Shown piece after piece: positions 34,879 through 53,488 of a DNA stretch of 64,000 bases. The translations under genes and the position numbers were made by a program. Below the pieces are notes generated by a model, which was not told the DNA's origin, ran no database searches, and saw nothing but the letters and a program-made list of their open reading frames with translations. The stretch covers positions 762-64,761 of the forward strand of contig JAISBN010000139.1 in NCBI GenBank assembly GCA_031266175.1. Direction: 5' to 3'. The DNA comes from Treponema sp. (GTDB lineage: Bacteria > Spirochaetota > Spirochaetia > Treponematales > Breznakiellaceae). Within the stretch, counting starts at the first letter, position 1, and each line of letters begins with the position of its first letter.

Positions 34879-34921
34879 ATATGACATTTGTCATGTTTTG
34901 GAGGAATTTTTCCTTTTTTTG

Positions 34922-34949
34922 TTGACTTTTTTTCAGAGATCAGTATGCT
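34922..34949 (+). promoter_or_regulatory. Sigma70-like promoter TTGACT-N16-TATGCT upstream of the giant gene
   Basis: -35 at 34922-34927, -10 at 34944-34949. About 70-nt leader. AGAGG SD 6 nt before the ATG at 35025. Confidence 0.45.
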
Positions 34950-35024
34950 TTTTGTGAAGGCACCATCTGCGTGGGAAAGGAAGTCCGCGGGCGCGGACAG
35001 CATCAAGTGTAACAGAGGCCTCCC

Positions 35025-38000
35025 ATGGCTGCCAAATCTTTCTCCTTCTTCCTTTCGGGAATCATCCTGTGTTTATGTTCCGTAACCCTCTTTGCCCAGA
35101 CCAGGCCGGAACTCCGGGGTTTTGACGAACGGGTCTTCCAGTATCATTTTGACCGGGCCGACCGGGAACTGGATCCCGCCTCGTGGATCCGCGAAGCCCG
35201 GCTGGGGATCGGCCTGGCCCGGGCCGGCTGGGAAAGGACCGCCCTGGAAGTATACGCCGACCCTGAACTGCGGGCCGCGGCGCTGGAAGAAGTGGAACGC
35301 TGGTCGGAAGCGGAACTGGAACAGCGGTACGCCCGGTGGCTCTTTAAGCGCTTTTTCGGCGGAGCCTCCGGCGATACGGCAAAAACGCTGGACGCCGCCC
35401 TGGACGAGGCCAACCGCCGCTATGCCTACCATACCGATGACGAAGGCAATATCCTCTACGGCGAAACCGGCGATCCCGAAGCGGTACGTCCCTTTGAGGG
35501 ACGCAGCGTTGAAGAGGACCGGCAGCTGTGGCGCGGCCATGTTTCCGGAACGGAAGCGGCGGAACTGCAGCGCCACAGCCTTTCTTTCTCGTCGGCCTTC
35601 CCCGAATTATTGTCGTTTATCGGGGAAGAAAACCGGGAAAGTTTTGAAAAACAGTTCCGGGAATTTTCCGCCGCTTCGCTGTTACAAAAAAAGGCGGAAT
35701 TTGAAGCCCTGCTGGACCGGGAAGAGCGGCTCTTTATCGCCCGCCGGACCGGCGATGTCTGGAGCCTTCGCAAGCAGAGCGAAAACGAAAAAGCGTCGGT
35801 GATCAGCTCCCAGCTGATTGCCGGCGCCCAGGCCGTCTGCGCCGAGGGAATCTCCGCCCTGGAAGAACGGATAGAAACGGCCCGGGCGGGGACCGGGGAT
35901 CTTTCCTTGGCGGGAGCGGAATGGCTCAGCGCGTTTGAAGAACAGTTTGACCGGGGACTCAAGGCCTGGTCCGGGGCGGAGGAACGGTTTATCATCCGCC
36001 GGATGGAATGGGAACGGGACAGCGGCGAACATTTTCTTGAGGGGGAAGAAGCGTGGAAGACCGCTTTTTCGGAACTGGAAAGGGAACGGCTTGCCTGGGA
36101 AGAACAGGCCAGAGAACTTTTTAACAGCGGGGAACAGCTCTTTGCCGCGGTTTCCCAACAGCTGGAGTCCGCCATCGCCGAAGCCAGGGAAGAATTCCTC
36201 CGGGATGCCGCCCTCCGTACCTACAACGGCGCGGAAAGAGCGGGCGCGTGGGTAGACATGTATGTTACCGGGAATGCGGTTATGGCGGAAGCCCGGGACA
36301 GCGTTGAGTTTTGGCTTTCCCGCTTTGTCAGCGGTTCCCCCGCGGGCGGCATGGAAAACGGCACGCTCGCCGCGTGGGTACAGCAGATTGTCAACCGGGG
36401 CGGAATTACCACCTACCGGGAAGCAAAAGTAAAGATCCTTGGCCGGACAATGGAAAACCGGATAGAGCAGTTTATACCCCTGACCGAAATGCAGAAAATC
36501 GCGGGCCGGGAACTGCTCCGCTGGTCCGCCCTGTATACCCAGTACCGGAACAAATCCGGCGAAGCCCTGGCGGTTCTAGAACAGGAATTCGGCGTGGCCC
36601 TGGGCATGGACCGGGGAGCCCTGACAGCGGTCCTCGGTTCGGACAGCGAATCGTTTTTCCTGGATGAATACCAGGTTGAATTACTGCGGGCAAAGGCAAT
36701 TGCCGGGTACTGGGAACAGCGGCTGGATATTGCCCAGGCCGTTTCCTCCTATGCGGAAGAATTAACCGCGGGCCGCATGACCGAAGAAGAAAGCCTTCTG
36801 CAGTGGAGGGATTCCAAGTCGCGGTATGACACCGCGGTTACGGCCTATGAGGAAGCCCAGAACCGCCTGAAAGACGCCGGATCCGGTCTTGAGACGGTCC
36901 GGGCCGAACTGCAAGACGCCGCGGCGGAACTGGCCGCGGCGGAAAGATCCCTGGAGGAACTGAATAACCGCTACGCGGATCAAATGGCGGCCTACCAGGT
37001 TAATTCCGGTGATTTTATCCTTGAGGAATTAGGCGCTTATTATGCATCCCTGGTCCGGCTGACGGAAAACCGCCTTACCGATGATGCCTATTACACGTCG
37101 TACCTCCGGGCCGAACAGCAGTACGCGGATGCTTATATCCTGCGGGATGCCTGGGCGGCGCTCAAAAGTATTATCGAAACCGCAAGCGAAGCAGAAACCG
37201 AAGCAGAAGCGGAAACCGGTGATGAAGCTGAGACCGAATCCGATACCGGCGAGGAAACGATAAACGAAGCGGCAAGGGAAACCCGGCAGCTGCAGCTGGC
37301 TTTTTTAAGCGCCCCTTCGGCCGCGGACTGGTATTTTGCCGCGGCCGGCAGGGAAGGAACGGAAGCGGAAAAAAAGGCCCTGGAAGAAGAAGGGCTCCTT
37401 AACCGGCTCAAGCGCGAAGCCCTGGAAGAAGCCGTCCCGGGAAACGCCGGGCGGCTGCTGGCCGTTTACCGGGATTTGTCTCCCTATTCGCCCGCGGCCC
37501 AGCGGGAAGCGGCGGACTATGCCCGGCGCGCGCTGGGAATGATATTTGCGGAATTCGGCATCGAAAGCGCCGGGGAGGAATTACCGCCCATGGCGTTGAT
37601 AGGCGACGCCCTGTACCAGTACGAAACGGACAGCGATATGATTCCCGCGGCCGCGCTTGCATCCTTCCTCATACGGATCGATGAAGAAACGGAAGTTCTG
37701 CCCATACTGCTTGAAGCGGAACTTGGAGCGTGGAAAGAGTCGCTCATTGCCTATATGGCGGCAAAGACATTGTACCTGGGAATCGAAATTCCCGAACTGG
37801 CCGGCAACATACTGGATGAATATGAGCAGTTTATTGCCGACGCGCTTGACCGGATGAACGGCGGTGAGCTGTCGCAGGAACTGGCCCGGCAGGGGGCTTT
37901 TTATCAGTACCTGATTGATTTTCTTGTGTCCTGCGAGGATTTAAAAACCGCCGTACGCTCCGGGGGAGATGAAGGCAGGGAACACTGGCGGACCTATATC

Positions 38001-41000
38001 AGCGCCCCCGTCTTTAATCCCTACAGTATCAACAGTAAAGAAACCCTCTCCGCCGCGGAAGCCGGAGATCCGGAAGCGGAACTCCCCGGCGTCTCAGGCA
38101 TCAGGGGCGCTTTGTCCCGGGAGGAAGGGCTGCTGGCCGACGCCTTCGAGGCGGCGGAAGAATCCCGGCGGGTTTTGACGGAAGCCTTCGGCATGTTTTA
38201 TGAAAGCGGCATGTCCCCGGAACAACGGGACTTTCTTTTGGCTGCGGAAAGGTACATGGCCGATCCGGACCTTGGCTGGACGGATCTTCCGGATAACGGT
38301 AATTACGCCGCGGCGCTGGAATTATTCCAGAAAGAGTCAATAGCGTTTCAGAACAGGTTTTTGTACGAGGAAACCATCAAGCAGCAGATAGCGCAGCTCG
38401 GTTTTGAATATACGATCCTTCCTCCGGGAGGACAGGAAGCGCTTGACGCGCTCAAGGACATTTCCGGGGAACTGGAAGCAGCCCGCCTGGTCCACCAGAA
38501 CATGCTTGAGCGGTATAATGCCGGAGCGGCCCGGTATATTGCCGAGGGAAACAATTATGAATCCCTCTACGGTCTGGTAAAAGATCGTTTTACCGCCATG
38601 GAACAGGCCGGGAATGAATATGAAAAACAGGATGCGATAAGGCGCTGGGCAAGTACGGCATACCTGCGTCAGACCGCCGAATTGCCCGAAGCGGCAGTAT
38701 ACTATAAAGAGCCGGAAGAAGAGTTGGAATATGCCGCCGGCAGGAACCGGCGGGCGCAGATTGCCCTGTCCGCACTACAGGATCTCTATAGCGGCGGGGA
38801 GTCCAAAAGACCGTATGCGGATGAAGAGTACAACAGCCTGTACCGGGAATATCAGGAAAGTTTTTCCAGAATGTTTTTAACGTTCAAGGCGAAAATGGAA
38901 TTTACCGCCGGCCTTGAGGCGGAACAGATAAAGAACAGAGAATTGTATCTTTCCGCCCATGACGCCATGTCGTCATTTGTTAATCAGAATATGTATAGCT
39001 GCTATGACGAATACAATCCGCCCGCCGTTACGGACAGTTCTCTCCTGGATTTTATACACATCACCGGATCCGGGGATCTGGGGCTTTCATTTGATCCCGG
39101 GTCATTTGTATTGCACCAAACAACACCGGAAGAGGCTCTTGAATTGTCCGGGTATTTTCAAACCAAAGGATTTACCGGAGACGGGGAAAGCCAAATGTCC
39201 GCCTTCGAAACGGCTCTGAAAAAATGGGTTGCCAGAATGGCCGGTTATAATCTTCAGGATATGAATGTATACCAAACCTGGGGCCTGGCCCTGGATTATC
39301 TAACCAGACGGCTTAAGGAAAGCAACCCGTCCATCGGCAGTACCCGGTCGATCTACGAGCTTACCAATATGGGCGCGGACGGAACTATTGAACTTGACGG
39401 GGATTCTCTGAACAAACTGCTCGACCGATACCGGAATAACAGGCTGCCGGGTATTCAGCAGAACGCATGGAACAGCCTGAGCGCCCAGCAGCGCGCCGAT
39501 CTGGGATTTTTGGCGGCCCTGCTTCTTACCGGAAGGGGAGGGGAAGGGGCCGCGGGACTCACGCAGGTTTCGGAATACCTGGAAATGGACGAGATCTATG
39601 GCGAAGCCGATTATTACAAGATTACGAAAAAACTGTTGTTCATACGGATAACCGTATACCGCTGGCCCTACACCTTTGATCACAGCGGATTAAATCAGGT
39701 GTTTAACGCTTCCAAAAACAGGCAGACCGCATTTTATAATTCCATTAATGCCAATAAATCGCTCTTTTCATCCGGGGTTTCAAAAGCCCTTTCGGAAATA
39801 ACGGCCTATGAAAAATCCTGCGGAAGACTTGCCGTTTTAACCAAACAGAAAGAGGACGGCATAACCTGGGACGATATAGAACCGGCGCTGATGCTTCTGG
39901 AAAACATCGATACAAACGAAATAAAGAAACTGGAAACCCACTGGTATGAGATGCGGGAAGATCGCGGCGCTGTTATCTATACGGATATTGCGGGGGCTTT
40001 GGGCAGTTTATACGCGTGGGGAGAAGGACTCAGAAACGATGCGGAGCGGGACTTTGAGAACGCCTATCTTGCCGGAGAGGAAATCAGACAGGACAAGCAG
40101 GCTGAGTACAGGGATGCCCTGGAAGCGTACATTGACGGAACAGGCTCTCTGGCGGATTTGAATAGCGCCGCCCGGGAGGCCTACGGAGATAAAGCGGCGG
40201 CGTTAAAAAATCATCTGGGAAATACGGGAGCGGCGCTTATTGCCGACTTAAAATCAATCAATGCCGAACGGCCTGAATATACGGAACAGTACCGGAATTT
40301 GGCCGGACAGTATACCGGATTGATAGACCGTGTCTATGACGCCCGGTTTAACGCCGAATTGGCCGCCAGGGAAACGGAATGGCAGGAACAGCAAAAGGAT
40401 TTGCGGGAAAAACTCGCATCCTGGCATGAGGCGGCGGGGCTTATCCTGGAACGGGGAAGGCAGGACTGGAAAGACGGTTTTGAATCCATGCAGGCGGCGT
40501 ATGCAAAATGGGAGCGGGATTTTTCCGAACAGTATGCCATTGTTGATGCGGCCTGGAATGCCGCTTACCTGGAAAGCCTTACGAATAAGGAACAATGGAT
40601 CAATCAGGCTGTCGTTTCCGCCAATGAAGCCCTTGATAATACCCTTCTGAGTTTTGTCGCTTCCGATGCGGAAGCCTATGCCCGAAGGCTGGATTCTTTT
40701 ATACCCTCGGCGCTTCCCGGATACGGAACCGTGGAAGAAGCCGCGTCAATCCTGCAGGCGGTTCTTGGCAGGGCGGGAATTACCGGCCTTGCCGGCGCGT
40801 TTACCGCCATGGCAGGCAGCGCCGGTACGGTTATGACCCAGGTTAGGACCGGAACTTCCGGGCTTGGACTCTGGAATTCGGGTCAGGCCCACGCGGCGGC
40901 AAAGGAGCTTGCCTGGAACAGTACCAGTGAAATGGCGGACGGCAGGATGGCAATCCTTGGATTTCAGGCCAAAGAGTCGGTCTTGGAAGCAAAAAAAATT

Positions 41001-43928
41001 CTGGAAGAAAATATAGCCCGGAGCAATACCGGTTTTGACGGCAGCATGGACGATCTGTATACGATGGACGGAGGCTGGAGACGGACCGGCAGCAGATATA
41101 ACAAGGATATTATTGTCCATTCAACATTTTTTAAAAGCGCCATTACCGACAAGGTTGTGATTGATGCCTATAGATGGTTTGTCATGGATTATTGGGAATT
41201 GAATACCGATTTGAGCGAGGGAAATTTAAACGGCCTGAATTACAGGGGAATACAAGCGCTTGTAGCCATGGCGCAGAAGGAAATTCAGGAAAAAAGCGAT
41301 GAGGTATTCGGCGCTGACGGTACGGAGGGGGCTTTTACCGCCTGGATCGGCAGCCCTGCCGTTATGACCAACGGAGGAATAACAGATAACGGCAGCGGCG
41401 AGCTTGGCCGCCTGCTGCGTGAATTTTACAAATGGGAGCAGAAGCAGGGCGAGGGTATAGCGGCGATGAATGCGCCCCTCTGGGATAAACCTCTCTGGGA
41501 TTCCCGGGGTTCGTGGTTCAGCGCGCCAAGCCTTCGCAGCGCGGTTGACATGGTCAATACAATTGCCGCCACGGTAGTTTCCGCGGTCCTGGCTCCGGTT
41601 ACCGCCGGCGGCAGTTTTGCCCTTGGGATTGCCATCAATTTAACGGATGATCTATTGTTTAACAGTTTGGATGTCGCCTACGGATATAAGAGCTGGTCTG
41701 AAGCGGGATTTGATTTTGGGAAAAAAGCCCTCGTGACAACGGTAACAAGCGTGGCGGGAGCGGCTGTAAAAGTAGGGTCCGCCACTGCGGGAATAGGAGG
41801 CGTTATTTCAACAACCGTCAAAACGGCAGTAAAAACCTTTAGCACAAGTACCATAACCAGCGCCATAAATGCGGTTACCTACAATAACGGCAAATTCGGC
41901 TGGTCAAAAGACGATTTTAGAGGGGGTCTCTGGAACGGTCTCATAAATGCCGCCGTCGCGGGGGCCGGGACCTTTACTACCGGCTCGCTCAACCTTGGGC
42001 TTGAAGGATTTTACGGCAAGTACTATGCTGATGGGACAAAACTATCGTCCCTGGCCGGAGGTTTGGCGGCTCAGGGCGTGAATTATGCCCTGGGCGGTGA
42101 CTTTACGTTGAATGCTTTCAACATTGGGCTTTTAGCCAAAAATGACGCTGTGGACCTTGGAATGCTGGAACTGCATTTTGGACATGATGGTTTTAGTGCC
42201 GGCCTTGGGTCGGGCGGTGCGGATGTCAGTCTGGAATCCATTATTGGGGCAGCAAGAGGTTTGGAGGCATGGAAAGCGAATTTTGACATCTGGGGTTCTG
42301 ATTCTGCGGATGCGAAAAAATACATAAGCCAGATGAGGACGCTGTATTCGGGCGGGAATGGCAGTGAAAATAGAGAATTGTACGATTCGATGCTGGCGGG
42401 AACAACCATGGTTTATGAAAACCGAAACGCCGATCACACCCAAACGGTTTATGATCCCGTGTCCGGTTATAAATTGATACTGCTGGGAAACGATGCCCTT
42501 GATGATGGAAGCCGCTTTGGCCTTAATGTGGTGTTCAGTCATGAATCCTATCGAAACGGCCTGGATGACGGCGTTGAAGGACAGAGGATGGAAACAGACA
42601 GGGCGATCTTTGGGCATATCAGTACCGCCTTGGGATTAATGGGAAGTTACGGGGAAAATGCTGTCGGCTCCGAAGTTCGGGAACGGGCTCTTAAATTCGC
42701 TGAAAACTATAATATTTTTCTATCTGATCTTAGTACTGTAGAAGATCATAATGCGGCAGTTGGAAATTTACTCAATGTCTTTGATGAATTTGATTCGGGT
42801 AAAGATTATTGGCGGTTGGTAAAAAAAGAAGGTGGATCCTATGGTTTGCTTAATGATGGAAACCACAGCCTGCTCGATGAAAAAGGTAAGGTGATTGTTA
42901 AAAGCACTCTTGATATTTTTGACAGATCGGGAAATATTATTGGTCATCATTATGATGATCCCGATTCATATCTTAGATCCCTTGGTATGCTGTTGGGGAT
43001 ATATCCCGATTTCAATCAGGGGACGGATAAGGCGCAGCTGTTAAAAGAATACCGGCTTTTTACCGCAAATACCTATTTTGATAATATTTATTTGGGAACA
43101 GTCAAATCGGTAAAACAAAATAATGGCATCATAAATGTTAATCCGTATCTTATGACGTACAAAGAGATAGTTAATGGTAAAGGGTATATGATAGCCGCCT
43201 ACGGTTCTTATAACCAGATTGCTCTTTCAATTTTCGATGAATATAATGAAGTGAGAGGACATGTGATCTTTAACAACAAACCGGGAGAACGGGATTATGC
43301 GATGATCGAAAATATGATACCCGAGGGTAAAAGGTTAAAAGCAGGGACAATTTCATTCGAAACAGTTGGTTTTTACGCTAATGTAAAAATGTTTGGCTTG
43401 GGTTCGACTTTACCAGATCCCACAAAAATGGGGGCCGGTCATCCTGCTGTTCTTGATGGTACTTATCGTTACGCGTGGTCGCTTCACGCCGTCGCTTCTC
43501 AAGATCCTTATAGGGCTTTCCGGTTGTTTAGTGGAAGGCCTGATTCCTGGGACTCTGTTACCGGGCCAAAACCCGCGATTAATAGTGGTATTGGTATTGT
43601 GGAAGATTTTCCATATAGTAACGGAATATTTGATAACTGGTCGGGGGACTTGCGGAAGTTTAATGGATATTACTATAAGAATGGAAACAGAGCGATGACG
43701 ACTACGGACGCTATTAATGGACATAGGGCGTATTCAAATCCATATGAGTTGAAAACCAATGGCTATACGGCCGGAAGCCTCGGATGCCAGGTTTGGATAC
43801 CCACGACCTTTTATCAGCTTTCCAGCGGATTAAGGACAACTATGGAATCCCAGGCCTGGGGTAATTTTATTATCAACAGGTGGATTTTAGGTGACGGGAC
43901 AGGGAACAAAAATAATTGGAGTTGGTAA
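35025..43928 (+). CDS. Giant (2,967 aa) secreted modular protein: signal peptide, long Glu/Ala/Arg/Leu-rich helical body, Gly/Ala/Thr-rich hydrophobic module, AT-rich C-terminal YkuD/Tlde1-like candidate toxin domain
   Basis: Single uninterrupted ORF. N-terminus MAAKSFSFFLSGIILCLCSVTLFAQT. C-terminal INGH-x17-SLGCQV motif. All six-frame competitors are short. No family recognised for the first ~2,700 aa. Confidence 0.85.
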   Translation: MAAKSFSFFLSGIILCLCSVTLFAQTRPELRGFDERVFQYHFDRADRELDPASWIREARLGIGLARAGWERTALEVYADPELRAAALEEVERWSEAELEQRYARWLFKRFFGGASGDTAKTLDAALDEANRRYAYHTDDEGNILYGETGDPEAVRPFEGRSVEEDRQLWRGHVSGTEAAELQRHSLSFSSAFPELLSFIGEENRESFEKQFREFSAASLLQKKAEFEALLDREERLFIARRTGDVWSLRKQSENEKASVISSQLIAGAQAVCAEGISALEERIETARAGTGDLSLAGAEWLSAFEEQFDRGLKAWSGAEERFIIRRMEWERDSGEHFLEGEEAWKTAFSELERERLAWEEQARELFNSGEQLFAAVSQQLESAIAEAREEFLRDAALRTYNGAERAGAWVDMYVTGNAVMAEARDSVEFWLSRFVSGSPAGGMENGTLAAWVQQIVNRGGITTYREAKVKILGRTMENRIEQFIPLTEMQKIAGRELLRWSALYTQYRNKSGEALAVLEQEFGVALGMDRGALTAVLGSDSESFFLDEYQVELLRAKAIAGYWEQRLDIAQAVSSYAEELTAGRMTEEESLLQWRDSKSRYDTAVTAYEEAQNRLKDAGSGLETVRAELQDAAAELAAAERSLEELNNRYADQMAAYQVNSGDFILEELGAYYASLVRLTENRLTDDAYYTSYLRAEQQYADAYILRDAWAALKSIIETASEAETEAEAETGDEAETESDTGEETINEAARETRQLQLAFLSAPSAADWYFAAAGREGTEAEKKALEEEGLLNRLKREALEEAVPGNAGRLLAVYRDLSPYSPAAQREAADYARRALGMIFAEFGIESAGEELPPMALIGDALYQYETDSDMIPAAALASFLIRIDEETEVLPILLEAELGAWKESLIAYMAAKTLYLGIEIPELAGNILDEYEQFIADALDRMNGGELSQELARQGAFYQYLIDFLVSCEDLKTAVRSGGDEGREHWRTYISAPVFNPYSINSKETLSAAEAGDPEAELPGVSGIRGALSREEGLLADAFEAAEESRRVLTEAFGMFYESGMSPEQRDFLLAAERYMADPDLGWTDLPDNGNYAAALELFQKESIAFQNRFLYEETIKQQIAQLGFEYTILPPGGQEALDALKDISGELEAARLVHQNMLERYNAGAARYIAEGNNYESLYGLVKDRFTAMEQAGNEYEKQDAIRRWASTAYLRQTAELPEAAVYYKEPEEELEYAAGRNRRAQIALSALQDLYSGGESKRPYADEEYNSLYREYQESFSRMFLTFKAKMEFTAGLEAEQIKNRELYLSAHDAMSSFVNQNMYSCYDEYNPPAVTDSSLLDFIHITGSGDLGLSFDPGSFVLHQTTPEEALELSGYFQTKGFTGDGESQMSAFETALKKWVARMAGYNLQDMNVYQTWGLALDYLTRRLKESNPSIGSTRSIYELTNMGADGTIELDGDSLNKLLDRYRNNRLPGIQQNAWNSLSAQQRADLGFLAALLLTGRGGEGAAGLTQVSEYLEMDEIYGEADYYKITKKLLFIRITVYRWPYTFDHSGLNQVFNASKNRQTAFYNSINANKSLFSSGVSKALSEITAYEKSCGRLAVLTKQKEDGITWDDIEPALMLLENIDTNEIKKLETHWYEMREDRGAVIYTDIAGALGSLYAWGEGLRNDAERDFENAYLAGEEIRQDKQAEYRDALEAYIDGTGSLADLNSAAREAYGDKAAALKNHLGNTGAALIADLKSINAERPEYTEQYRNLAGQYTGLIDRVYDARFNAELAARETEWQEQQKDLREKLASWHEAAGLILERGRQDWKDGFESMQAAYAKWERDFSEQYAIVDAAWNAAYLESLTNKEQWINQAVVSANEALDNTLLSFVASDAEAYARRLDSFIPSALPGYGTVEEAASILQAVLGRAGITGLAGAFTAMAGSAGTVMTQVRTGTSGLGLWNSGQAHAAAKELAWNSTSEMADGRMAILGFQAKESVLEAKKILEENIARSNTGFDGSMDDLYTMDGGWRRTGSRYNKDIIVHSTFFKSAITDKVVIDAYRWFVMDYWELNTDLSEGNLNGLNYRGIQALVAMAQKEIQEKSDEVFGADGTEGAFTAWIGSPAVMTNGGITDNGSGELGRLLREFYKWEQKQGEGIAAMNAPLWDKPLWDSRGSWFSAPSLRSAVDMVNTIAATVVSAVLAPVTAGGSFALGIAINLTDDLLFNSLDVAYGYKSWSEAGFDFGKKALVTTVTSVAGAAVKVGSATAGIGGVISTTVKTAVKTFSTSTITSAINAVTYNNGKFGWSKDDFRGGLWNGLINAAVAGAGTFTTGSLNLGLEGFYGKYYADGTKLSSLAGGLAAQGVNYALGGDFTLNAFNIGLLAKNDAVDLGMLELHFGHDGFSAGLGSGGADVSLESIIGAARGLEAWKANFDIWGSDSADAKKYISQMRTLYSGGNGSENRELYDSMLAGTTMVYENRNADHTQTVYDPVSGYKLILLGNDALDDGSRFGLNVVFSHESYRNGLDDGVEGQRMETDRAIFGHISTALGLMGSYGENAVGSEVRERALKFAENYNIFLSDLSTVEDHNAAVGNLLNVFDEFDSGKDYWRLVKKEGGSYGLLNDGNHSLLDEKGKVIVKSTLDIFDRSGNIIGHHYDDPDSYLRSLGMLLGIYPDFNQGTDKAQLLKEYRLFTANTYFDNIYLGTVKSVKQNNGIINVNPYLMTYKEIVNGKGYMIAAYGSYNQIALSIFDEYNEVRGHVIFNNKPGERDYAMIENMIPEGKRLKAGTISFETVGFYANVKMFGLGSTLPDPTKMGAGHPAVLDGTYRYAWSLHAVASQDPYRAFRLFSGRPDSWDSVTGPKPAINSGIGIVEDFPYSNGIFDNWSGDLRKFNGYYYKNGNRAMTTTDAINGHRAYSNPYELKTNGYTAGSLGCQVWIPTTFYQLSSGLRTTMESQAWGNFIINRWILGDGTGNKNNWSW

Positions 43929-43929
43929 A

Positions 43930-45255
43930 ATGATAAACGCTATCTGGCTTAAGGGCATTGTAATATTGGTTTTCACGGTTACTTTATCCTCCTGCACCGC
44001 TAAAAACGAAATGCCGGAGGATAATACAAGTGAAAGGTCTGTGGAAATTGAAAAGCAAATTCCGGCTCAAAATAAAAACTCCTCCGGTTTGGCATCTTTG
44101 AGCGTTGAAACTGATAAGGCCGATAATGAGTCTGATGATGACGGAGATTATGAGGTTATTCTAAAAATGCAGGGCCTGGAATTAAGGGATTTTACGGCAA
44201 ACGGACGTAATAATCTTTCCGCCCAACAGGGGACAAGCTATCTGTTTAAGTATTTAAAGAATATGCGGCAGGATGTTCACGATATGTTTTTATTAACTGA
44301 TAGTAAGGTTCAACGTATGTTTAATTCACATTTATGGTATGGCCGGTCTGTACCGGGCGTAAAAGAACCGGTACACTTCATTGAATATCAGGAAAACCTG
44401 CTGCAATTTAAGGAAAGAAATGAAGTAATACCGGTCGGAGAAATGACCCTTGATAAATGGGATGCCATCCTCGGGGGAATAATTACGGAATTTACAAACG
44501 GAAAAATAGCGATATACAATCCAATATCTGTCAGAGCGGGGGATGGGGTCATTTTCTATATACCATATTATATTAAAGCAGAAGATGCTGCAAGGTGTTT
44601 GTTTTTGCGGGTTAGGGATGGTAAGATTGTTGATAAAAAATATCTTGATCATAGCTTTGATTTTGCCATTTATGATTTGGGCTTCTTTTATTCAAGTTTA
44701 TATGACAAGGATTATTCCTTTGGAGAATGGCATGTGGATGATTTTAAAAATATAATTGTTATTCAGGATATGAATCATAACATGCTGACATTTGATTATA
44801 AATCATTGATCAGTACTAAATGTGACGTTTTTACCCATGTTGTTGTTTTACCCTTTGTTCAAAATGGGAAGATGGGATTTTCTCTTTTAATTGGGTATCC
44901 AATGATATTTTTGTACATACCCAATAAGGGTGAAATTTTTCCTAAAAATAGTGGTATGGCTCTATATAAAACATATATTGCGGATTTTGCAAATAACGAA
45001 CTCCTTTTGCTGGAAGAAGGTTGTTTTAATTTTTTGGCGACTGAAAATTTTGTTAAAAATTTTGTGTTAAATAATCTTGATAGAGATTACTACAACCTGG
45101 CGTTTTTGCCGGAAGGATTTTCTGATACGATTCAGTCGGATGAATTTGTGGAAGAAGCAATAACCGAACGTAATGTGGAGTTAAACTTAATAGAGGCAAG
45201 GAGAAATTTGTATGACGAATCTTTGTTGCAGAGGTTGATAGATATAGATAAATAG
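43930..45255 (+). CDS. AT-rich lipoprotein of unknown family, coupled to the giant gene (candidate immunity/accessory protein)
   Basis: Start moved to the ATG at 43930, 1 nt after the giant gene's TAA. Lipobox TVTLSSC. 441 aa with no recognisable domain. Confidence 0.7.
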   Translation: MINAIWLKGIVILVFTVTLSSCTAKNEMPEDNTSERSVEIEKQIPAQNKNSSGLASLSVETDKADNESDDDGDYEVILKMQGLELRDFTANGRNNLSAQQGTSYLFKYLKNMRQDVHDMFLLTDSKVQRMFNSHLWYGRSVPGVKEPVHFIEYQENLLQFKERNEVIPVGEMTLDKWDAILGGIITEFTNGKIAIYNPISVRAGDGVIFYIPYYIKAEDAARCLFLRVRDGKIVDKKYLDHSFDFAIYDLGFFYSSLYDKDYSFGEWHVDDFKNIIVIQDMNHNMLTFDYKSLISTKCDVFTHVVVLPFVQNGKMGFSLLIGYPMIFLYIPNKGEIFPKNSGMALYKTYIADFANNELLLLEEGCFNFLATENFVKNFVLNNLDRDYYNLAFLPEGFSDTIQSDEFVEEAITERNVELNLIEARRNLYDESLLQRLIDIDK

Positions 45256-45327
45256 CAGCTTAATACAAACCGGGGCAGATACGTGAATAACAGTTAAAAT
45301 CCAGGGAAGTTATTTATGATCACGATA

Positions 45328-45963
45328 TTATTCATTTTTAGTATTTGAAACGTAAAGTACATCCTTCAGATTAAACCGGAATTCAAACTCTTCCAGGGCT
45401 TGACCGAAACCGAAAAAAAGGGGATAGGTTACGATCCCCTGGCCGGGAAGGGGAGCTCCGCAGATGACGGTTTTCTGGATAAAAACAGGGGTATTTTTCC
45501 GGATGTTTATTTTTGCCCTGGCCGCGGCTTCCTGTTCTTCAAAGGTCCGGGCGTTGTAAATGACGGTGTATGAATCGTATGCCCCGGAAGCGTTCTGCCA
45601 ATAAAGCTCACCGTTTATGGTAAAATTTTGGTACTGCTTAATGGAAGGGGGGCTGTTTTCCCCGGAAGGATAGATCACAAAATAAAAGGCCAGTCCGTCC
45701 GGATAGGTATAGGTTTGTTTCCCGTCAAAGATAAAATTTTGCCGTTCAACCAGGGCAAGTACGGTGGTGGACATTTTCCCCCTTCTGGTAATGGGAATTC
45801 TGGAGACCGGGGTTAAAGGTTTTGTTGCCTTGTCTGAGAGCGGGACGCCGGTACAGGAAAAAACAAGGAGTAGCAGCAGAAAACCGTAAGGAAAGAGCCG
45901 CCTGAATTTACCTCGGGCTAGGCGGGTATGGGCGAAAGATTCTTTCCGGTAGTTGACCGTCAT
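45328..45963 (-). CDS. Hypothetical lipoprotein
   Basis: ATG at 45963. LLLLLVFSC lipobox. No family recognised. Confidence 0.5.
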   Translation of the reverse strand: MTVNYRKESFAHTRLARGKFRRLFPYGFLLLLLVFSCTGVPLSDKATKPLTPVSRIPITRRGKMSTTVLALVERQNFIFDGKQTYTYPDGLAFYFVIYPSGENSPPSIKQYQNFTINGELYWQNASGAYDSYTVIYNARTFEEQEAAARAKINIRKNTPVFIQKTVICGAPLPGQGIVTYPLFFGFGQALEEFEFRFNLKDVLYVSNTKNE

Positions 45964-46071
45964 ATTCAAGAAGTATATCCCCCTTGCGGGGAAAAAGCTA
46001 CTCGGAATCAGGAGCCTTCCTGGGAAAAACGGGACCGTCGTAGTCTTCGCCCCATTTTACTGTTTGTGTTC

Positions 46072-47010
46072 CTATCCGGCAGCTTCGTTCCAGTGGCCGA
46101 TGGTACGGATTTTCTGACTGCGGTAACGGACCAGAATTTCCGGCCGCCGGGCGCAGAGATCGTCCAGGTCCCGGATAAGCGTATCCTTAATGGCCCGGGC
46201 GACGGCGCCGGGATCGGCATGGGCGCCTTCTTCGGGTTCGGGAATGATCCCATTAATTACCTTAAAGTCCAGCAAGTCGCCGCTGGTAATTCGGAGCATG
46301 GCGGCGGCGTCTTTTGCCCTGGACGCGTCGCGGAGAAGTATGGACGCGCAGCCTTCGGGGCTGATAACGGAATAGATGGCATTTTCCAGCATATAAATTT
46401 TATCCCCCACGCAAAGGCCCAGGGCGCCGCCGGAGCCGCCTTCCCCGATAATGATACAGATTACCGGAGTAAGGAGGCGGCTGAAACACATCAGGTTCCG
46501 GGCAATGGCTTCGCCTATGCCCCGTTCCTCCGCTCCCAGTCCGGGGTACGCGCCGGCGGTATCTACCAGGGTAACGATGGGCCGGTGAAACTTTTCCGCT
46601 TCCCTGGCCAGCCGCAGGGCTTTGCGGTACCCTTCAGGATTGGCCATGCCGTGGTTGCGGCGCACGTTTTCTTTCAGGGTGCGGCCCTTCTGGTTTGCCA
46701 GCACCGTTACAGGCCGGCCTTCCAAAAAACAGATGCCCCCCACAATCGAAGGATCGTCCCCAAAGGTCCGGTCACCGTGGAGTTCGATAAAGTTGTCAAA
46801 AATCCGGGTGATATAATCCATCGCGTAGGGCCGGTCGGGATGCCGGGCAAGTTCCACCTGTTTCCACACCGTTTCGGCCCGCGACTGGGACCGGAGCTTT
46901 AGCTCCAGCCGGGAAATTTCATCCGCCGCATCCAGTCCCGTTTCCTCGATCAGTTTTTTTAATTCCCCAAGCTTTGATTCAAGCCGGTTTCCGTCCGGGG
47001 TATTATTCAT
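46072..47010 (-). CDS. accA: Acetyl-CoA carboxylase carboxyltransferase alpha subunit
   Basis: Start moved to the ATG at 47010 (MNNTPDG...). RPYAMDYI, GRPVTVLANQKG, VTLVDTAGAYPG. Confidence 0.9.
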   Translation of the reverse strand: MNNTPDGNRLESKLGELKKLIEETGLDAADEISRLELKLRSQSRAETVWKQVELARHPDRPYAMDYITRIFDNFIELHGDRTFGDDPSIVGGICFLEGRPVTVLANQKGRTLKENVRRNHGMANPEGYRKALRLAREAEKFHRPIVTLVDTAGAYPGLGAEERGIGEAIARNLMCFSRLLTPVICIIIGEGGSGGALGLCVGDKIYMLENAIYSVISPEGCASILLRDASRAKDAAAMLRITSGDLLDFKVINGIIPEPEEGAHADPGAVARAIKDTLIRDLDDLCARRPEILVRYRSQKIRTIGHWNEAAG

Positions 47011-47806
47011 GATTGCTCCTGTGCAGGTCGATAAGGGCGGAGATGATCCGCCGCTGATCCCGGCGGTGGACGATGGTGTCCACGAAGCCCTTTTCCAGCT
47101 GGAACTCGGAACGCTGAAATCCTTCGGGAAGGCTTTGCCGTATCGTTCCTTCAATAACCCGGGGACCCGCAAAACCGATAAGGGCGCCGGGCTCCGCCAT
47201 GATCACATCGGCCAGCATGGCGAAGGATGCCGTCACTCCGCCGGTGGTGGGATCGCAGAGGACGATAAAGAAGGGGACTCCCGCCTTGTCCAGCTCCGCG
47301 GCGGCGCTGGCGGTTTTTGCCATCTGCATAAGGGAGAAGATCCCCTCCTGCATCCGGGCGCCGCCGGAAGTGGTATAGATCAGCACGGGAAGTTTTTTTT
47401 CCGCCCCCTTGATTAGGGCCCGGCCGACTTTTTCACCCACCACCGATCCCATGGAGCCGCCCATGAACCTGAAGGACATAATTCCCAGGATGACGGGCTT
47501 TCCTTCAATGGTGCAGTCGCCGGTAAGCACCGCGTCCTTCATCCGGGTTTTGGCTTCCGCCTCGGAAAGTTTTTCTTCGTAGCCCGAAAGATCAATGGGA
47601 TTAAGGGAGCGGAGGTTCGCGGAAAATTCAACGAAGCTTCCCTCATCCGCAAGGTATGCTATCCGTTCCACGGGCTCCATCCGGTAGTGATAACCGCATC
47701 CGGGACAGGTGTTAAGCGATGCCTTTACCGTCGCTTCGTCGCGGGGTTTTCCGCATCCGGGACAGGTTTTTCCGGTCTGCCCGCCGTCTTCACTGGACAT
47801 GTTCAA
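47003..47806 (-). CDS. accD: Acetyl-CoA carboxylase carboxyltransferase beta subunit
   Basis: Zinc ribbon CPGCG..CPGCGYHYRM, MGGSMGSVVGEK. Confidence 0.9.
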   Translation of the reverse strand: MNMSSEDGGQTGKTCPGCGKPRDEATVKASLNTCPGCGYHYRMEPVERIAYLADEGSFVEFSANLRSLNPIDLSGYEEKLSEAEAKTRMKDAVLTGDCTIEGKPVILGIMSFRFMGGSMGSVVGEKVGRALIKGAEKKLPVLIYTTSGGARMQEGIFSLMQMAKTASAAAELDKAGVPFFIVLCDPTTGGVTASFAMLADVIMAEPGALIGFAGPRVIEGTIRQSLPEGFQRSEFQLEKGFVDTIVHRRDQRRIISALIDLHRSNHE

Positions 47807-49148
47807 CTTCCTTCTCTATATTTTCGTACCAGGAGGTGCCGAAAACGCCGTAATGGAACACGGGGTGATTGATGATCCACCGCTGCCGTTCTTTATTGGT
47901 TGCGATTCCGTCAATTACCAGTTCCCGCAGGGCGCGGTCCATCCGGGCCAGCGCGTGGTTCCGGTCTGTTTCATGGACGATAAGTTTGGCCACCATCGAA
48001 TCGTAGTGGGGCGGAACGGAATACCCCGGATAGAGGAACGAATCGAACCGTACCCCCGGGCCTCCGGGTACTTCCAGCCGGGTTATTTTTCCCGGAGTCA
48101 GGGCATTGATCCTGCATTCCATCGCCCAGCCCGAAAGCGGCGGTTCCGCCGGGAAATCCGCCTCACCCGCCGCCGCGGCGTCCGCCTGTCCGGGAAGTTC
48201 CAGGCGGCCTTCGGTACAGGCAAGGATCTGCTGGCGTATAATATCGACGCCGCTTACAAACTCGCTTACCGGATGCTCTACCTGGACCCGGGCGTTTACT
48301 TCCATAAAATAAAATTTGCCCTCTTCCACAAGGAACTCGATGGTACCTGCGCCGCGGTACTTAAGCTCCCGGAAAAGCGGCACGGCCGCGGCGGTCATGG
48401 CCCGGCGCATGCCGGCGCTTACCGCGGGGGAGGGACTTTCTTCGATAAGTTTCTGATGATTTTTCTGAACCGTACAGTCCCGCTCGCCCAGAACGGCCGC
48501 ATTGCTGCCGTCGGCGATAATCTGCAGTTCCACGTGCCGGGGATTTTCCAGGTACTTTTCGATGAACACCGTACCGTCGGCAAAATTTTCCTCCGCCTCC
48601 CGGCTGGCAATGCTGATGTTGTCCCGCAGGTCTTCCGCCCTGCGGACGATCCGCATGCCTCTGCCGCCCCCGCCGGCGGCGGCCTTGATAATCACGGGAA
48701 AACCCAGGGCCTCCGCCGCCTGTATTGTTTCACCGCTGACCGCCCCGGTTCCCGGTGTTACCGGGAGGCCGTATTTTTGCGCGGTAGCCCTGGCCCGGAC
48801 CTTGTCGCCCAGGAGTTCTATCACCTCCGGATCGGGGCCGATAAAAAGAAGACCCTGGTCCCGGACCAGCCGGGCAAATTCCGGGTTTTCCGAAAGAAAG
48901 CCCACTCCGGGATGAACCGCCCCGCAGTCCGTATGGAGGGCCGCCATAATCAGGTTTTCCTTTACCAGGTAACTTTTTGCCGGGGGTGCCGGTCCTATGC
49001 AAACCGATCTGTCGGCAAGCCGCACATGGAGACTGTCCCTGTCGGCTTCGGAATAAACCGCGACGGTTTCGATTCCCATTTCCCGGCAGCTACGGATAAT
49101 GCGGACGGCAATTTCACCCCGGTTGGCGATTAAGAGACGCTTTATCAC
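47790..49148 (-). CDS. accC: Biotin carboxylase
   Basis: MIKRLLIANRGEIAVRIIR, GGGGRGMRIV, EMNARVQVEHPVSE. Confidence 0.93.
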   Translation of the reverse strand: MIKRLLIANRGEIAVRIIRSCREMGIETVAVYSEADRDSLHVRLADRSVCIGPAPPAKSYLVKENLIMAALHTDCGAVHPGVGFLSENPEFARLVRDQGLLFIGPDPEVIELLGDKVRARATAQKYGLPVTPGTGAVSGETIQAAEALGFPVIIKAAAGGGGRGMRIVRRAEDLRDNISIASREAEENFADGTVFIEKYLENPRHVELQIIADGSNAAVLGERDCTVQKNHQKLIEESPSPAVSAGMRRAMTAAAVPLFRELKYRGAGTIEFLVEEGKFYFMEVNARVQVEHPVSEFVSGVDIIRQQILACTEGRLELPGQADAAAAGEADFPAEPPLSGWAMECRINALTPGKITRLEVPGGPGVRFDSFLYPGYSVPPHYDSMVAKLIVHETDRNHALARMDRALRELVIDGIATNKERQRWIINHPVFHYGVFGTSWYENIEKEVEHVQ

Positions 49149-49164
49149 GGTCGTTCCTTCATCG

Positions 49165-49686
49165 TCAGCCCGGCCGCTTTACTTCAAAGAGTTCCTGTCC
49201 GTATTCAACCATATCCCCTCCTGCGGCTTTTACCGCGATAATTTCGCAGTCAAATTCCGCGACCAGCTGATTCATCATCTTCATCGCTTCCAGGATACAC
49301 AGGGTACCGCCGGCCTTTACTTTTGAGCCGGGCCGGACAAAGGGCGGAGCGTCGGGACCCGGCGAAGGGTAAAACGTTCCCACGATGGGACTGGTAATAA
49401 ACTCCGTCCCGGTCGCGGCGGCGTCTGCCGCGGTTCCGCTGCCCGCCGAAACCGGCTGTACCCCGGGGTCCTGTGCCGCGGGGCGGGATGCGGACGATGC
49501 CCCCGCGGGCGCTTCCGCCGTGCGGGACGGCGTTACGGACCCGGAATGTACCGCGGCGGCGCCGATGACGCCGGCGGAACTTTCTTTACGCAGTAGCAGC
49601 CGGGCGCTGCCGTCGCTTAATTCCAGTTCCCCGATGTTTCCGGCGGAGAACCTGTCGACCAGGGTAAGGATCAGTTTTTCATCCAT
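49165..49686 (-). CDS. accB: Biotin carboxyl carrier protein
   Basis: C-terminal biotinyl motif CILEAMKMMN. Ala/Ser/Pro-rich linker. Confidence 0.88.
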   Translation of the reverse strand: MDEKLILTLVDRFSAGNIGELELSDGSARLLLRKESSAGVIGAAAVHSGSVTPSRTAEAPAGASSASRPAAQDPGVQPVSAGSGTAADAAATGTEFITSPIVGTFYPSPGPDAPPFVRPGSKVKAGGTLCILEAMKMMNQLVAEFDCEIIAVKAAGGDMVEYGQELFEVKRPG

Positions 49687-49701
49687 AAAAAACCTCTTTG
49701 T

Positions 49702-51431: not shown

Positions 51432-51467
51432 ATCGGCCTCCCTGTGTTTATTTTACGGCCCGCGACT

Positions 51468-53486: not shown

Positions 53487-53488
53487 CC

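What the first reader, a model, noticed from the sequence alone, without database searches (positions are those of the whole stretch)
42650..45330. Sharp compositional break: the 3' end of the giant gene plus the downstream lipoprotein gene form an AT-rich cassette in a GC-rich chromosome
These are hand counts of single 60-nt lines. 35281-35340 (5' part of the giant gene) has 39/60 G+C. 43081-43140 (3' part of the same ORF) has 15/60. 44701-44760 (downstream gene) has 17/60. Composition declines along the ORF and is lowest from about 42.7 kb through 45.3 kb. It returns to GC-rich at accA. The AT-rich tract therefore covers exactly the C-terminal domain and the gene starting 1 nt after the stop (TAA-a-ATG). 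That is what toxin-tip/immunity displacement by recombination would produce. The downstream product is a lipoprotein (lipobox TVTLSSC), so it is periplasm-facing. That is the right compartment for immunity to a cell-wall-acting toxin, although 441 aa is large for an immunity protein. No integrase, transposase or tRNA flanks the tract.
Basis: partly seen in the sequence, partly recalled or inferred. Interest (0 to 1): 0.72.

Follow-up and report, generated by a model that had tools for sequence, protein, structure and literature searches.

The report
Swappable tail on spirochaete giant protein
The AT-rich block is the exchangeable C-terminal tail of a 2,967-residue secreted Treponema protein plus the lipoprotein gene that travels with that tail, arranged like a bacterial toxin-immunity cassette but on a giant carrier protein that has not been described.

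Summary
GC falls to 0.377 over 42,691-45,392, against 0.575 ± 0.025 in other 2.7-kb windows. GC3 shows the same drop (tail 0.38, lipoprotein gene 0.35, neighbours 0.62-0.68).

Comparative data support most of the interpretation.
- A 91%-identical relative (L001) loses all homology within ~30 bp at ~42,660 and carries an unrelated tail plus an extra gene.
- Homology resumes at the lipoprotein gene.
- A second relative (L002) still holds a 235-bp stub of the window-type tail in front of its lipoprotein gene.
- A third body (P0012), 90% identical, carries a third tail.

The carrier family has 622 clusters, all named hits spirochaetal. Its ~330-aa tails fall into at least 12 sequence types. Those that can be identified are peptidoglycan peptidases: NlpC/P60 above threshold, M23 in many members. 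Truncated orphan tail modules occur in other loci.

The lipoprotein is a remote homologue (E = 2e-8) of the proteins encoded directly after four other tails of the window's type. It stays under purifying selection after the tail is displaced.

Cautions:
- Immunity function is inferred, not shown.
- Three loci with the same tail type lack the partner gene.
- The fold of the window's tail is undetermined; it has only a partial LD-transpeptidase-like motif.
- The delivery route is unknown.

Best label: a new spirochaete variant of a polymorphic toxin-immunity system.

The parts
35025..43928 (+). Giant gene, 2,967 aa. In order: signal peptide (aa 1-25, possibly a lipobox at IILC16), a ~2,000-aa Glu/Ala/Leu-rich body, a hydrophobic segment, a Gly/Ser/Thr/Ala-rich region, a conserved pre-tail domain and an exchangeable tail.
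   Evidence: ORF. No Pfam, NCBIfam, PHROGs or PADLOC hit. Hydropathy and composition. The family has 622 representative clusters; all 108 named hits are Spirochaetota.
41538..41642 (+). The only strongly hydrophobic internal segment (aa 2172-2206). A Gly/Ser/Thr/Ala-rich region follows it, up to aa ~2400. Orphan modules in other loci begin about here.
   Evidence: Kyte-Doolittle scan. Orphan modules L004/P0001 start at window-equivalent aa 2259 and L005 at aa 2156.
42147..42660 (+). Conserved pre-tail domain (aa 2375-2546). Invariant residues are H2506, E2507, R2510, G2512, E2523, A2527 and H2531.
   Evidence: Alignment A5. AF2 model has pLDDT 75, with the core at 85-93. Foldseek found no significant match; only weak zincin-type hits.
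42650..42680 (+). Junction J1. Homology to L001 and P0012 ends here (aa ~2546, just after GLMGSYGxNxVG). It coincides with the GC change-point at 42,691.
   Evidence: blastn breakpoint at 42,667. 30-bp identity profile. Segmentation. Three-way protein alignment.
42661..43928 (+). Exchangeable type-A tail module (aa 2547-2967). It consists of a linker, the junction motif and a ~334-aa tail. GC is 0.41 and GC3 is 0.38.
   Evidence: Unrelated to the L001 tail. 12 homologues at 37-68% identity. No Pfam or PDB sequence match.
42792..42812 (+). Junction J2. The motif is DSGKDYW here and YDSSxDYW in the family consensus (aa 2590-2596). D and W are invariant across the family. L001 and P0012 share sequence up to this motif and diverge after it.
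   Evidence: Alignment A5, invariant D216, D220 and W222..
43722..43787 (+). H2900-x17-S2918-x-G-C2921, conserved in all complete type-A tails. C2921 is the only cysteine after aa 1599. It partly matches the LD-transpeptidase motif H-X-X14-17-(S/T)-H-G-C-h.
   Evidence: Alignment A1. Tails of P0162-P0164. Cysteine positions. Motif definition from PMC9638812.
43694..43928 (+). 3' end of the type-A tail. It is retained as a non-coding stub upstream of the lipoprotein gene in L002 (235 bp, within a 91%-identical match) and, from 43,878, in L001 (~50 bp).
   Evidence: blastn. Three-way DNA alignment A2.
43930..45255 (+). Lipoprotein gene (441 aa, lipobox LSSC22). It starts 1 nt after the giant gene's stop codon. 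GC3 is 0.35. It is the candidate cognate partner or immunity protein of the type-A tail.
   Evidence: Remote homology to the partners of four other type-A tails. dN/dS is 0.22-0.32. No Pfam, NCBIfam or PDB match.

Best explanation
The giant gene encodes a Sec-exported, spirochaete-specific carrier protein. Its last ~420 residues are an exchangeable module ending in a cell-wall-acting enzyme domain.

New tail modules enter by homologous recombination at two conserved junctions. One lies after the pre-tail domain at aa ~2546. The other is the YDSSxDYW motif at aa ~2590. The incoming module usually brings a downstream gene for a signal-peptide protein or lipoprotein.

These modules circulate among gut spirochaetes and keep a lower GC content than the host chromosome. 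That produces the compositional break.

In the window, the module is a type-A tail, a probable cysteine-dependent peptidoglycan peptidase. The translationally coupled 441-aa lipoprotein most likely binds and neutralises that tail in the producer's periplasm, acting as immunity.

Shown here: the break, the junctions, tail replacement in close relatives, the retained stub, the orphan modules, the tail-partner co-occurrence, and the peptidoglycan-peptidase identity of several other tails.

Inferred: toxicity, the target (rival cells rather than self), neutralisation by the lipoprotein, the catalytic chemistry of type A, and the export and delivery route.
For: Composition: GC 0.377, z about -8; GC3 0.38 and 0.35 against 0.62-0.68.

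Tail replacement:
- There is a sharp homology breakpoint at 42,650-42,680 inside an otherwise 90-94% identical gene.
- L001 and L002 carry an unrelated tail plus a 267-aa gene.
- P0012 (body 90% identical) carries a third tail.
- L001 and P0012 share the linker between J1 and J2, so the structure is mosaic.

Stub: 235 bp (L002) and ~50 bp (L001) of the type-A tail's 3' end remain in front of the conserved lipoprotein gene.

Family:
- 622 clusters; homology ends at aa ~2612-2630 and is followed by 270-350 further residues.
- 66 complete tails fall into 12 BLAST clusters.
- Tail identities: NlpC/P60 at E = 5e-10; M23 at E = 1e-4 to 7e-6 here, and PF01551 precomputed in many members; DUF5675, described as C82-like, faintly in type B.

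Orphan modules: L004 and L005 have a main-gene tail with its partner, then a 5'-truncated module starting in the conserved region with a type-A tail and its partner.

Partner:
- Four type-A tails are followed by homologous signal-peptide proteins of 565, 593, >542 and >444 aa.
- Their HMM hits the lipoprotein at 19.2 bits, E = 2e-8; the best of 2,000 shuffles scores 7.2.
- hhalign is colinear over 183 columns, E = 0.002.
- Type-B tails in L001, L002 and L009 are likewise followed by their own homologous partner.
- The lipoprotein's dN/dS is 0.22-0.32, including in lineages where type A was displaced.
Against: - No experiment shows toxicity or neutralisation.
- L011, L012 and L013 carry the closest type-A tails (58-65% identity, motif intact) with no partner gene downstream and no tblastn trace of one in the locus. 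L016, which has an M23 tail, also has none.
- The partner is large for an immunity protein (441 aa; relatives 565-593 aa with an F5/8 type C domain).
- The type-A fold is unresolved. The AF2 model has pLDDT 48.6. There is no Pfam or PDB hit. The comparison with type B is not significant (E = 0.066). The LD-transpeptidase motif lacks its second His.
- The carrier is a syntenic chromosomal gene under purifying selection (dN/dS 0.17-0.19), near the acc operon and usually behind two RND genes. That could also fit a housekeeping envelope protein.
- No known secretion or delivery domain was found.
Confidence: 0.6

Rival explanations
1. The giant protein is a housekeeping envelope protein whose C-terminal peptidoglycan hydrolase remodels the cell's own wall, for example around periplasmic flagella or at division. 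The downstream lipoprotein is a regulator or activator of that hydrolase, or simply an unrelated neighbour. Low GC reflects relaxed codon selection in a fast-evolving surface-exposed part.
For: - The gene is conserved and syntenic across relatives ~56% identical, usually behind two RND permease genes and near the acc operon.
- The body is under purifying selection (dN/dS 0.17-0.19).
- Several loci have no partner gene (L011-L013, L016).
- In L012, L013, L016 and L017 the tail's GC3 is close to native (0.47-0.55).
Against: - A housekeeping hydrolase should not switch between unrelated enzyme classes (M23, NlpC/P60, H...SxGC types) among bodies ~90% identical.
- Displaced stubs, 5'-truncated orphan modules and tail-specific partner genes are not expected.
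- GC3 of 0.35-0.38 beginning within ~30 bp of a homology breakpoint points to import, not drift.
Confidence: 0.2
2. The tail is an exchangeable toxin, but the lipoprotein is not its immunity protein. It is instead a helper that travels with the tail, for example a receptor-binding or lectin-type adaptor, a release factor or an export factor. Immunity is encoded elsewhere or is not needed.
For: - The partner is large, and its relatives end in an F5/8 type C (discoidin-like) carbohydrate-binding domain (PF25302). The partner of type-B tails carries that domain too.
- Type-A loci without any partner exist.
Against: - The window's lipoprotein lacks the F5/8C domain and keeps only the N-terminal core.
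- It is retained under purifying selection in L001 and L002 after its tail was displaced. That suits an orphan immunity gene better than a helper with no tail to help.
- Lipoprotein anchoring in the periplasm fits inhibition of a wall-acting enzyme.
Confidence: 0.15
3. The AT-rich block is a remnant of a phage or other mobile element, for example a tape-measure-like protein with a lytic domain, inserted into the chromosome.
For: Giant helical proteins ending in M23 or NlpC/P60 domains occur among phage tail proteins (general knowledge). DUF5675 has been described in phage lysins.
Against: - No PHROGs hit for the giant protein, the lipoprotein or the neighbouring ORF.
- No phage, integrase or tRNA genes flank it.
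- The gene has an N-terminal Sec signal and a conserved chromosomal context in many spirochaetes.
- Foldseek against viral structures gave nothing significant for the pre-tail domain.
Confidence: 0.03

Closest known systems
Polymorphic toxin systems (Rhs/YD-repeat, CdiA, MafB and others), as surveyed by Zhang et al. 2012 (PMC3482391)
   Same: - A large conserved N-terminal carrier with a variable C-terminal domain, demarcated by a conserved junction motif.
- A cognate gene immediately downstream.
- Replacement by recombination that leaves displaced stubs and orphan 5'-truncated modules.
- Low-GC tails.
- Tail repertoires that include NlpC/P60 and L,D-peptidase domains.
   Different: - No RHS/YD, filamentous-haemagglutinin, LXG, PAAR, MafB or other known trafficking or repeat domain.
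- The carrier is a spirochaete-specific ~2,500-residue, mostly helical protein with its own pre-tail domain.
- All identifiable tails act on peptidoglycan; none is a nuclease or deaminase.
- Partners are large lipoproteins or signal-peptide proteins, and they are missing from some loci.
- The gene is usually linked to two RND permease genes.
T6SS effector-immunity pair Tlde1-Tldi1 (LD-transpeptidase-fold effector; PMC9638812)
   Same: A periplasm-acting, cysteine-dependent peptidoglycan enzyme paired with a periplasmic immunity protein encoded next to it. The type-A tail has H-x17-S-x-G-C, which resembles H-X-X14-17-(S/T)-H-G-C-h.
   Different: - No sequence or profile similarity was detected.
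- The second His of the motif is not conserved.
- Delivery is not by T6SS.
- The tail is fused to a giant carrier.
- The partner is much larger than Tldi1.
CdiA-CT/CdiI and Rhs-CT/RhsI orphan arrays
   Same: In L001 and L002, an incoming tail-plus-partner cassette sits upstream of a remnant of the older tail and its retained partner gene. In L004 and L005, orphan modules begin within the conserved region, which could allow recombination back into the main gene.
   Different: - The junction motifs are different: YDSSxDYW and GLMGSYGxNxVG rather than VENN or PxxxxDPxGL.
- There is no two-partner secretion gene or T6SS gene nearby.
- In the window's lineage only a short stub remains, not a complete orphan tail.

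Membership tests
Polymorphic toxin-immunity system (sensu Zhang et al. 2012) | Conserved N-terminal region with unrelated C-terminal domains among close homologues | tested here: met
   Bodies are 88-90% identical up to aa ~2546-2633, and the tails are unrelated in the window, L001/L002 and P0012. There are 12 tail clusters among 66 family members.
Polymorphic toxin-immunity system (sensu Zhang et al. 2012) | Tail exchanged by recombination, with displaced remnants or orphan cassettes | tested here: met
   Sharp breakpoint at 42,650-42,680. Stub of 235 bp in L002 and ~50 bp in L001. Orphan 5'-truncated modules in L004 and L005.
Polymorphic toxin-immunity system (sensu Zhang et al. 2012) | A tail-specific gene immediately downstream that co-varies with tail type | tested here: inconclusive
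   Met in these loci:
- Type A in the window, L003, L004, L007 and L008, whose partners are homologous.
- Type B in L001, L002 and L009.
- L010, L017, L004-g1 and L005, each with a different signal-peptide protein.

Not met in L011-L013 (type A) or L016 (M23), which have no partner.
Polymorphic toxin-immunity system (sensu Zhang et al. 2012) | The tail is toxic and the downstream protein neutralises it | not testable with these tools
   This needs expression, rescue and binding experiments.
Polymorphic toxin-immunity system (sensu Zhang et al. 2012) | A recognised trafficking or secretion module (T5SS, T6SS, T7SS, RHS, PVC and others) | tested here: not met
   Only a Sec signal peptide was found. 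There is no Pfam, NCBIfam, PHROGs or PADLOC domain in the 2,967 aa.
LD-transpeptidase / YkuD (MEROPS C82) fold, including Tlde1-type effectors | Catalytic motif H-X-X14-17-(S/T)-H-G-C-h | tested here: inconclusive
   H2900-x17-S-L-G-C2921 is conserved in all complete type-A tails. The spacing, Ser, Gly and Cys fit. The second His is variable (L, K, A, E or D). Motif definition from PMC9638812.
LD-transpeptidase / YkuD (MEROPS C82) fold, including Tlde1-type effectors | Detectable sequence or structural similarity to YkuD, Tlde1 or DUF5675 domains | tested here: not met
   - No Pfam hit in 9 members.
- The family profile finds nothing in PDB sequences.
- hhalign against type B, which has a faint DUF5675 hit, gives E = 0.066 over 25 columns.
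- The AF2 model is too poor for a fold comparison (pLDDT 48.6).
Peptidase M23 / NlpC-P60 cell-wall hydrolase tails (other members of the carrier family) | Pfam domain match in the C-terminal tail | tested here: met
   This applies to relatives, not to the window's tail.
- The P0040 tail matches NLPC_P60 at E = 5.4e-10, above the curated cut-off.
- The P0041 and P0144 tails match M23 across the full domain (E = 7e-6 and 1e-4); the L010 tail matches only the HxH part of the M23 profile (positions 65-88 of 96, E = 1.2e-5). All three are below the cut-off.
- PF01551 is precomputed in at least 17 family members.

The most novel reading that the evidence does not exclude
This is an undescribed contact- or secretion-dependent antagonism system specific to Spirochaetota. 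A ~3,000-residue helical carrier, ancestrally co-transcribed with a pair of RND permeases, delivers interchangeable peptidoglycan-degrading tails into neighbouring spirochaetes. A new pre-tail domain (invariant HE..R...E...H) releases the tail, and large lipoproteins serve as immunity. That would be a new delivery route for polymorphic toxins in a phylum with no characterised interbacterial weapon of this type.
Probability: 0.3. Interest if true: 0.8.

Novelty: new variant of a known kind. Interest (0 to 1): 0.62.

Why it matters
Gut spirochaetes, including the dense Treponema communities of termites, have no characterised machinery for competition between bacteria.

This locus shows the genetic signature of a polymorphic toxin-immunity system: swappable tails, tail-specific partner genes, displaced stubs and orphan modules. 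The carrier, however, has no known domain. It forms a large family (622 clusters at 50% identity) that appears restricted to Spirochaetota.

If the inference holds, it would provide four things:
- a testable toxin-immunity pair;
- two defined recombination junctions;
- a panel of new cell-wall-targeting enzyme domains and their inhibitors;
- a candidate new export route, through the linked RND permeases.

It is also a practical warning for annotation. Many of these genes are currently labelled only "M23 family metallopeptidase" or "hypothetical protein".

Tried and rejected
- Family and sequence searches. Pfam, NCBIfam, PHROGs and PADLOC found nothing for the giant protein or the lipoprotein. 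PDB sequence searches with the tail, the lipoprotein and the type-A profile found nothing.
- Type-A tail structure. The AF2 model from 9 sequences was unusable (pLDDT 48.6). Foldseek on it returned only GFP-barrel noise.
- Pre-tail domain structure. The AF2 model was good (pLDDT 75), but Foldseek against PDB and BFVD gave no significant match. Weak zincin-type hits are kept only as a lead.
- A shared fold between type-A and type-B tails through the SxGC motif is rejected as unproven. hhalign gave E = 0.33 and then 0.066.
- Metagenome scans. The scan with the partner family found nothing. The scan with the type-A alignment found only two truncated loci.
- The idea that the window's tail and lipoprotein were imported together recently relative to all relatives is only partly upheld. 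The composition supports import, but the nearest type-A tails (L011-L013) are about as diverged as the body and lack the partner. The donor and the timing therefore remain unknown.
- Phage or mobile-element origin is rejected.
- I could not look up the genomic context of P0012, the third tail type on a 90%-identical body, because it was not returned by the permitted search.

Full report
**1.

Sliding-window GC and maximum-likelihood segmentation divide the region as follows.

| Segment | GC |
|---|---|
| 30,001-38,319 | 0.563 |
| 38,320-42,690 | 0.515 |
| 42,691-45,392 | 0.377 |
| 45,393-46,139 | 0.499 |
| from 46,140 | 0.589 |

Other 2.7-kb windows of the 64-kb sequence average 0.575 (sd 0.025, minimum 0.51), so the tract lies about 8 sd below the mean.

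Third-codon-position GC rules out an amino-acid-composition effect:

- giant gene body: 0.66 and 0.56
- last 1,260 nt of the giant gene: 0.38
- downstream gene: 0.35
- yidC, jag, accC and fabV: 0.62-0.68

The 2,967-aa ORF is 35,025-43,928. The junction reads TAA-A-ATG. The 441-aa ORF is 43,930-45,255, with lipobox LSSC. There is no tRNA in the window, and the neighbouring genes have no integrase or transposase domain.

**2. Organism and context**

The flanks are yidC, jag, a DUF6675 gene and a DUF4832 gene upstream. Downstream are a 213-aa lipoprotein-like ORF and then accA, accD, accC, accB and fabV. The lipoprotein is identical to a protein from a Treponema sp. MAG (P0009). Neither the giant protein nor the lipoprotein matches anything in Pfam, NCBIfam, PHROGs, PADLOC or PDB sequences.

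**3. The key comparison**

L001 is a 21.8-kb metagenome contig with the same gene order. Its DNA compares with the window as follows.

| Window | L001 | Identity |
|---|---|---|
| 34,871-42,667 | 18-7,781 | 91% |
| 42,668-43,877 | 7,782-9,987 | none |
| 43,878-45,261 (lipoprotein gene) | 9,988-11,365 | 88% |
| 45,358-55,326 | 11,423-21,368 | 91% |

A 30-bp identity profile shows about 90% identity up to 42,650 and about 45% from 42,680. That is a sharp recombination junction, and it coincides with the GC change-point.

In L001 the non-homologous block encodes an unrelated tail plus an extra 267-aa gene. L002 has the same arrangement.

In L002 the spacer between the 267-aa gene and the lipoprotein gene contains a 235-bp remnant of the window-type tail's 3' end, lying within a match that is 91% identical overall. 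The remnant includes the codons for ...NGHRSYSNPYELKTNGYTAGSLGCQVW...GDGTGNKNNWSW-stop. L001 keeps only the last ~50 bp.

So the window-type (type A) tail was next to the lipoprotein gene in the common ancestor of these three. A type-B tail with its own downstream gene later displaced it in the L001/L002 lineage, leaving a stub and the lipoprotein gene.

**4. A third tail, and two junctions**

An exhaustive HMMER search with body residues 1500-2640 found P0012. It is 90% identical to the window over 1,769 aa but carries yet another tail.

L001 and P0012 share the ~50-aa linker that follows aa 2546. They diverge from each other only after the motif YDxxADLW. The window differs from both from aa 2547 onward.

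The module therefore has two recurrent junctions:

- J1, after GLMGSYGxNxVG (nt ~42,660)
- J2, the family-wide YDSSxDYW motif (aa 2590-2596, nt 42,792-42,812), whose D and W are invariant in a 21-sequence alignment

**5. The family**

The search found 622 representative clusters at 50% identity, 242 of them with E ≤ 1e-30. Many proteins are 2,500-4,000 aa long. Homology typically ends at the equivalent of aa 2,612-2,630, and 270-350 further residues follow. All 108 hits from the annotated collection are from Treponema, Spirochaetaceae or other Spirochaetota.

Sixty-six complete tails fall into 12 BLAST clusters. Their identities, where detectable:

- One cluster is NlpC/P60 (E = 5.4e-10, above the Pfam cut-off).
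- Several tails match peptidase M23. P0041 and P0144 match across the whole domain (E = 7e-6 and 1e-4). L010 matches only the HxH part (E = 1.2e-5). All three are below the Pfam cut-off, but PF01551 is precomputed for at least 17 members.
- Type B has a faint DUF5675 hit (E = 0.005). A 2026 preprint describes that domain as C82-like, that is, LD-transpeptidase-like.

Every tail that can be named acts on peptidoglycan.

Short contigs show orphan arrays. In L004 the end of a main gene carries an M23 tail and is followed by a 361-aa signal-peptide protein. Next comes a 5'-truncated module that starts in the conserved Gly/Ala-rich region (window-equivalent aa 2259) and carries a type-A tail and a 565-aa partner. 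L005 is similar.

**6. The lipoprotein is the type-A tail's partner**

Four other type-A tails (L003, L004, L007, L008; 37-42% identical to the window's) are each followed by a signal-peptide protein of 565, 593, >542 or >444 aa. These four proteins are 34-73% identical to one another.

BLAST does not link them to the window's lipoprotein. An HMM built from the four does: 19.2 bits, E = 2e-8 for a single target. Two thousand shuffled controls had mean -3.9, sd 3.8 and maximum 7.2. hhalign gives a colinear alignment of 183 columns at E = 0.002.

The relatives have an extra C-terminal F5/8 type C domain (PF25302) that the window's protein lacks.

Type-B tails in L001, L002 and L009 are likewise followed by their own homologous partner. 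In L009 that partner has a lipobox.

Between the window, L001 and L002 the lipoprotein gene has dN/dS 0.22-0.32 and dS 0.17-0.37. The giant body has dN/dS 0.17-0.19, and the acc and fabV genes 0.05-0.13. The lipoprotein gene is therefore maintained even where its tail has been displaced, as expected for an orphan immunity gene.

**7. Complications**

- Partner-less loci. P0162-P0164 (L011-L013) carry the closest type-A tails. The tails are 58-65% identical to the window's, the bodies 56-59%, and the motif is intact. The next genes downstream are convergent housekeeping genes, and tblastn finds no partner in those loci. In L012 and L013 the tail's GC3 is close to native (0.55 and 0.47). The M23 locus L016 also lacks a partner, whereas L017 has a 270-aa LRR lipoprotein. 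Partner genes are therefore common but not universal. The window's strongly AT-shifted tail-plus-partner looks imported, but its donor has not been sampled.
- Type-A fold unknown. The AF2 model was poor (pLDDT 48.6). No Pfam or PDB hit was found. The link to type B is not significant.
- Only a motif argument supports the chemistry. H2900-x17-S-x-G-C2921 is conserved in every complete type-A tail, and C2921 is the only cysteine after aa 1599. This partly matches the LD-transpeptidase motif H-X-X14-17-(S/T)-H-G-C-h (PMC9638812), but the second His is missing.

**8. Carrier architecture**

| Residues | Feature |
|---|---|
| 1-25 | signal peptide |
| to ~2000 | Glu/Ala/Leu-rich body |
| 2172-2206 | single hydrophobic segment |
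| to ~2400 | Gly/Ser/Thr/Ala-rich region |
| 2375-2546 | conserved pre-tail domain (invariant H2506, E2507, R2510, E2523, H2531) |
| 2547-2967 | exchangeable tail module |

The pre-tail domain models well (pLDDT 75; core 85-93) but has no significant structural neighbour. Several weak hits are zincin metallopeptidases: BlaR1, CapP, IrrE-like and SprT-like. A role in releasing the tail is speculation.

In seven of seven more distant relatives with available context, the giant gene directly follows two co-oriented RND permease genes. The window has no such genes.

**9. Interpretation**

The genetics match a polymorphic toxin-immunity system as defined by Zhang et al. 2012 (PMC3482391). The matching features are a conserved carrier, unrelated tails in close relatives, conserved junction motifs, tail-specific downstream genes, displaced stubs, orphan modules and low-GC tails.

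It differs in four ways:

- The carrier is unknown, with no recognised trafficking domain.
- The tail repertoire seems restricted to wall-acting enzymes.
- The partners are large lipoproteins.
- Some loci lack a partner.

I put the polymorphic-toxin reading at about 0.6. Within that reading, I put the chance that the lipoprotein is the immunity protein at about 0.55-0.6. The main rival is a self-acting wall-remodelling protein whose hydrolase domain happens to be exchangeable, at about 0.2.

**10. Verdict**

The compositional break is real and is explained by modular recombination. The displacement seen among sampled relatives happened in the sister lineage, not in the window. Function remains inferred.

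This is a new variant of a known kind, of moderate to high interest. It gives a testable toxin-immunity pair and points to an undescribed spirochaete delivery scaffold.

Noticed in passing
L009-L013, L016, L017 (immediately upstream of the giant gene); absent from window 1-64,000: In all seven more distant relatives with context, two co-oriented RND/AcrB-like permease genes (PF00873, ~1,010-1,060 aa each) directly precede the giant gene. The window and L001 lack them. They may be a dedicated export partner or an ancestral operon.
   Followed up: partly
window 45,328-45,969 (-): This 213-aa ORF has a lipoprotein-like N-terminus (LLLLVFSC) and no Pfam hit. It occupies the intermediate-GC segment (45,393-46,139, GC 0.50) between the lipoprotein gene and accA. 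It is conserved in L001, with a relatively high dN/dS of 0.46.
   Followed up: partly
L001 9,155-9,958 and L002 1,327-2,130, compared with L009 12,625-13,773: The 267-aa partner of the type-B tail in L001 and L002 lacks the ~95-residue N-terminus, including the lipobox, that its 382-aa homologue in L009 has. It may be truncated or mis-started, so the incoming cassette's partner may not reach the periplasm.
   Followed up: no
window 35,025-43,928: The window's own giant protein is absent from the 5.8-billion-protein collection, although its neighbour (P0009, LBK74_10300) is present. The source record may list it as a pseudogene or omit it. The ORF is intact here.
   Followed up: no
L003 (GCA_031265445.1, binned as Bacteroidales): This contig is assigned to a Bacteroidales MAG but carries modules of the spirochaete family: a pre-tail HEAYRDG motif, a type-A tail and a partner protein. 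Either there was cross-phylum transfer or the contig is mis-binned.
   Followed up: no
window 38,320 and 37,071-37,270: There is a first, smaller GC step inside the giant gene at ~38.3 kb (0.563 to 0.515). There is also a local dip in identity to L001 (75%) at 37,071-37,270, near an acidic low-complexity stretch (ETEAEAETGDEAETESD) in the protein; I did not map that stretch to these coordinates.
   Followed up: no
window 35,025-35,105: The giant protein's signal peptide contains IILC16-L-C18. By the loose spirochaetal lipobox rules, the carrier could itself be a lipoprotein.
   Followed up: no
window 42,537-42,617: The pre-tail domain has an invariant H-E-x2-R...E...H constellation across 21 diverse family members. 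Its non-significant structural neighbours are enriched for zincin metallopeptidases. It may be a tail-releasing protease.
   Followed up: partly
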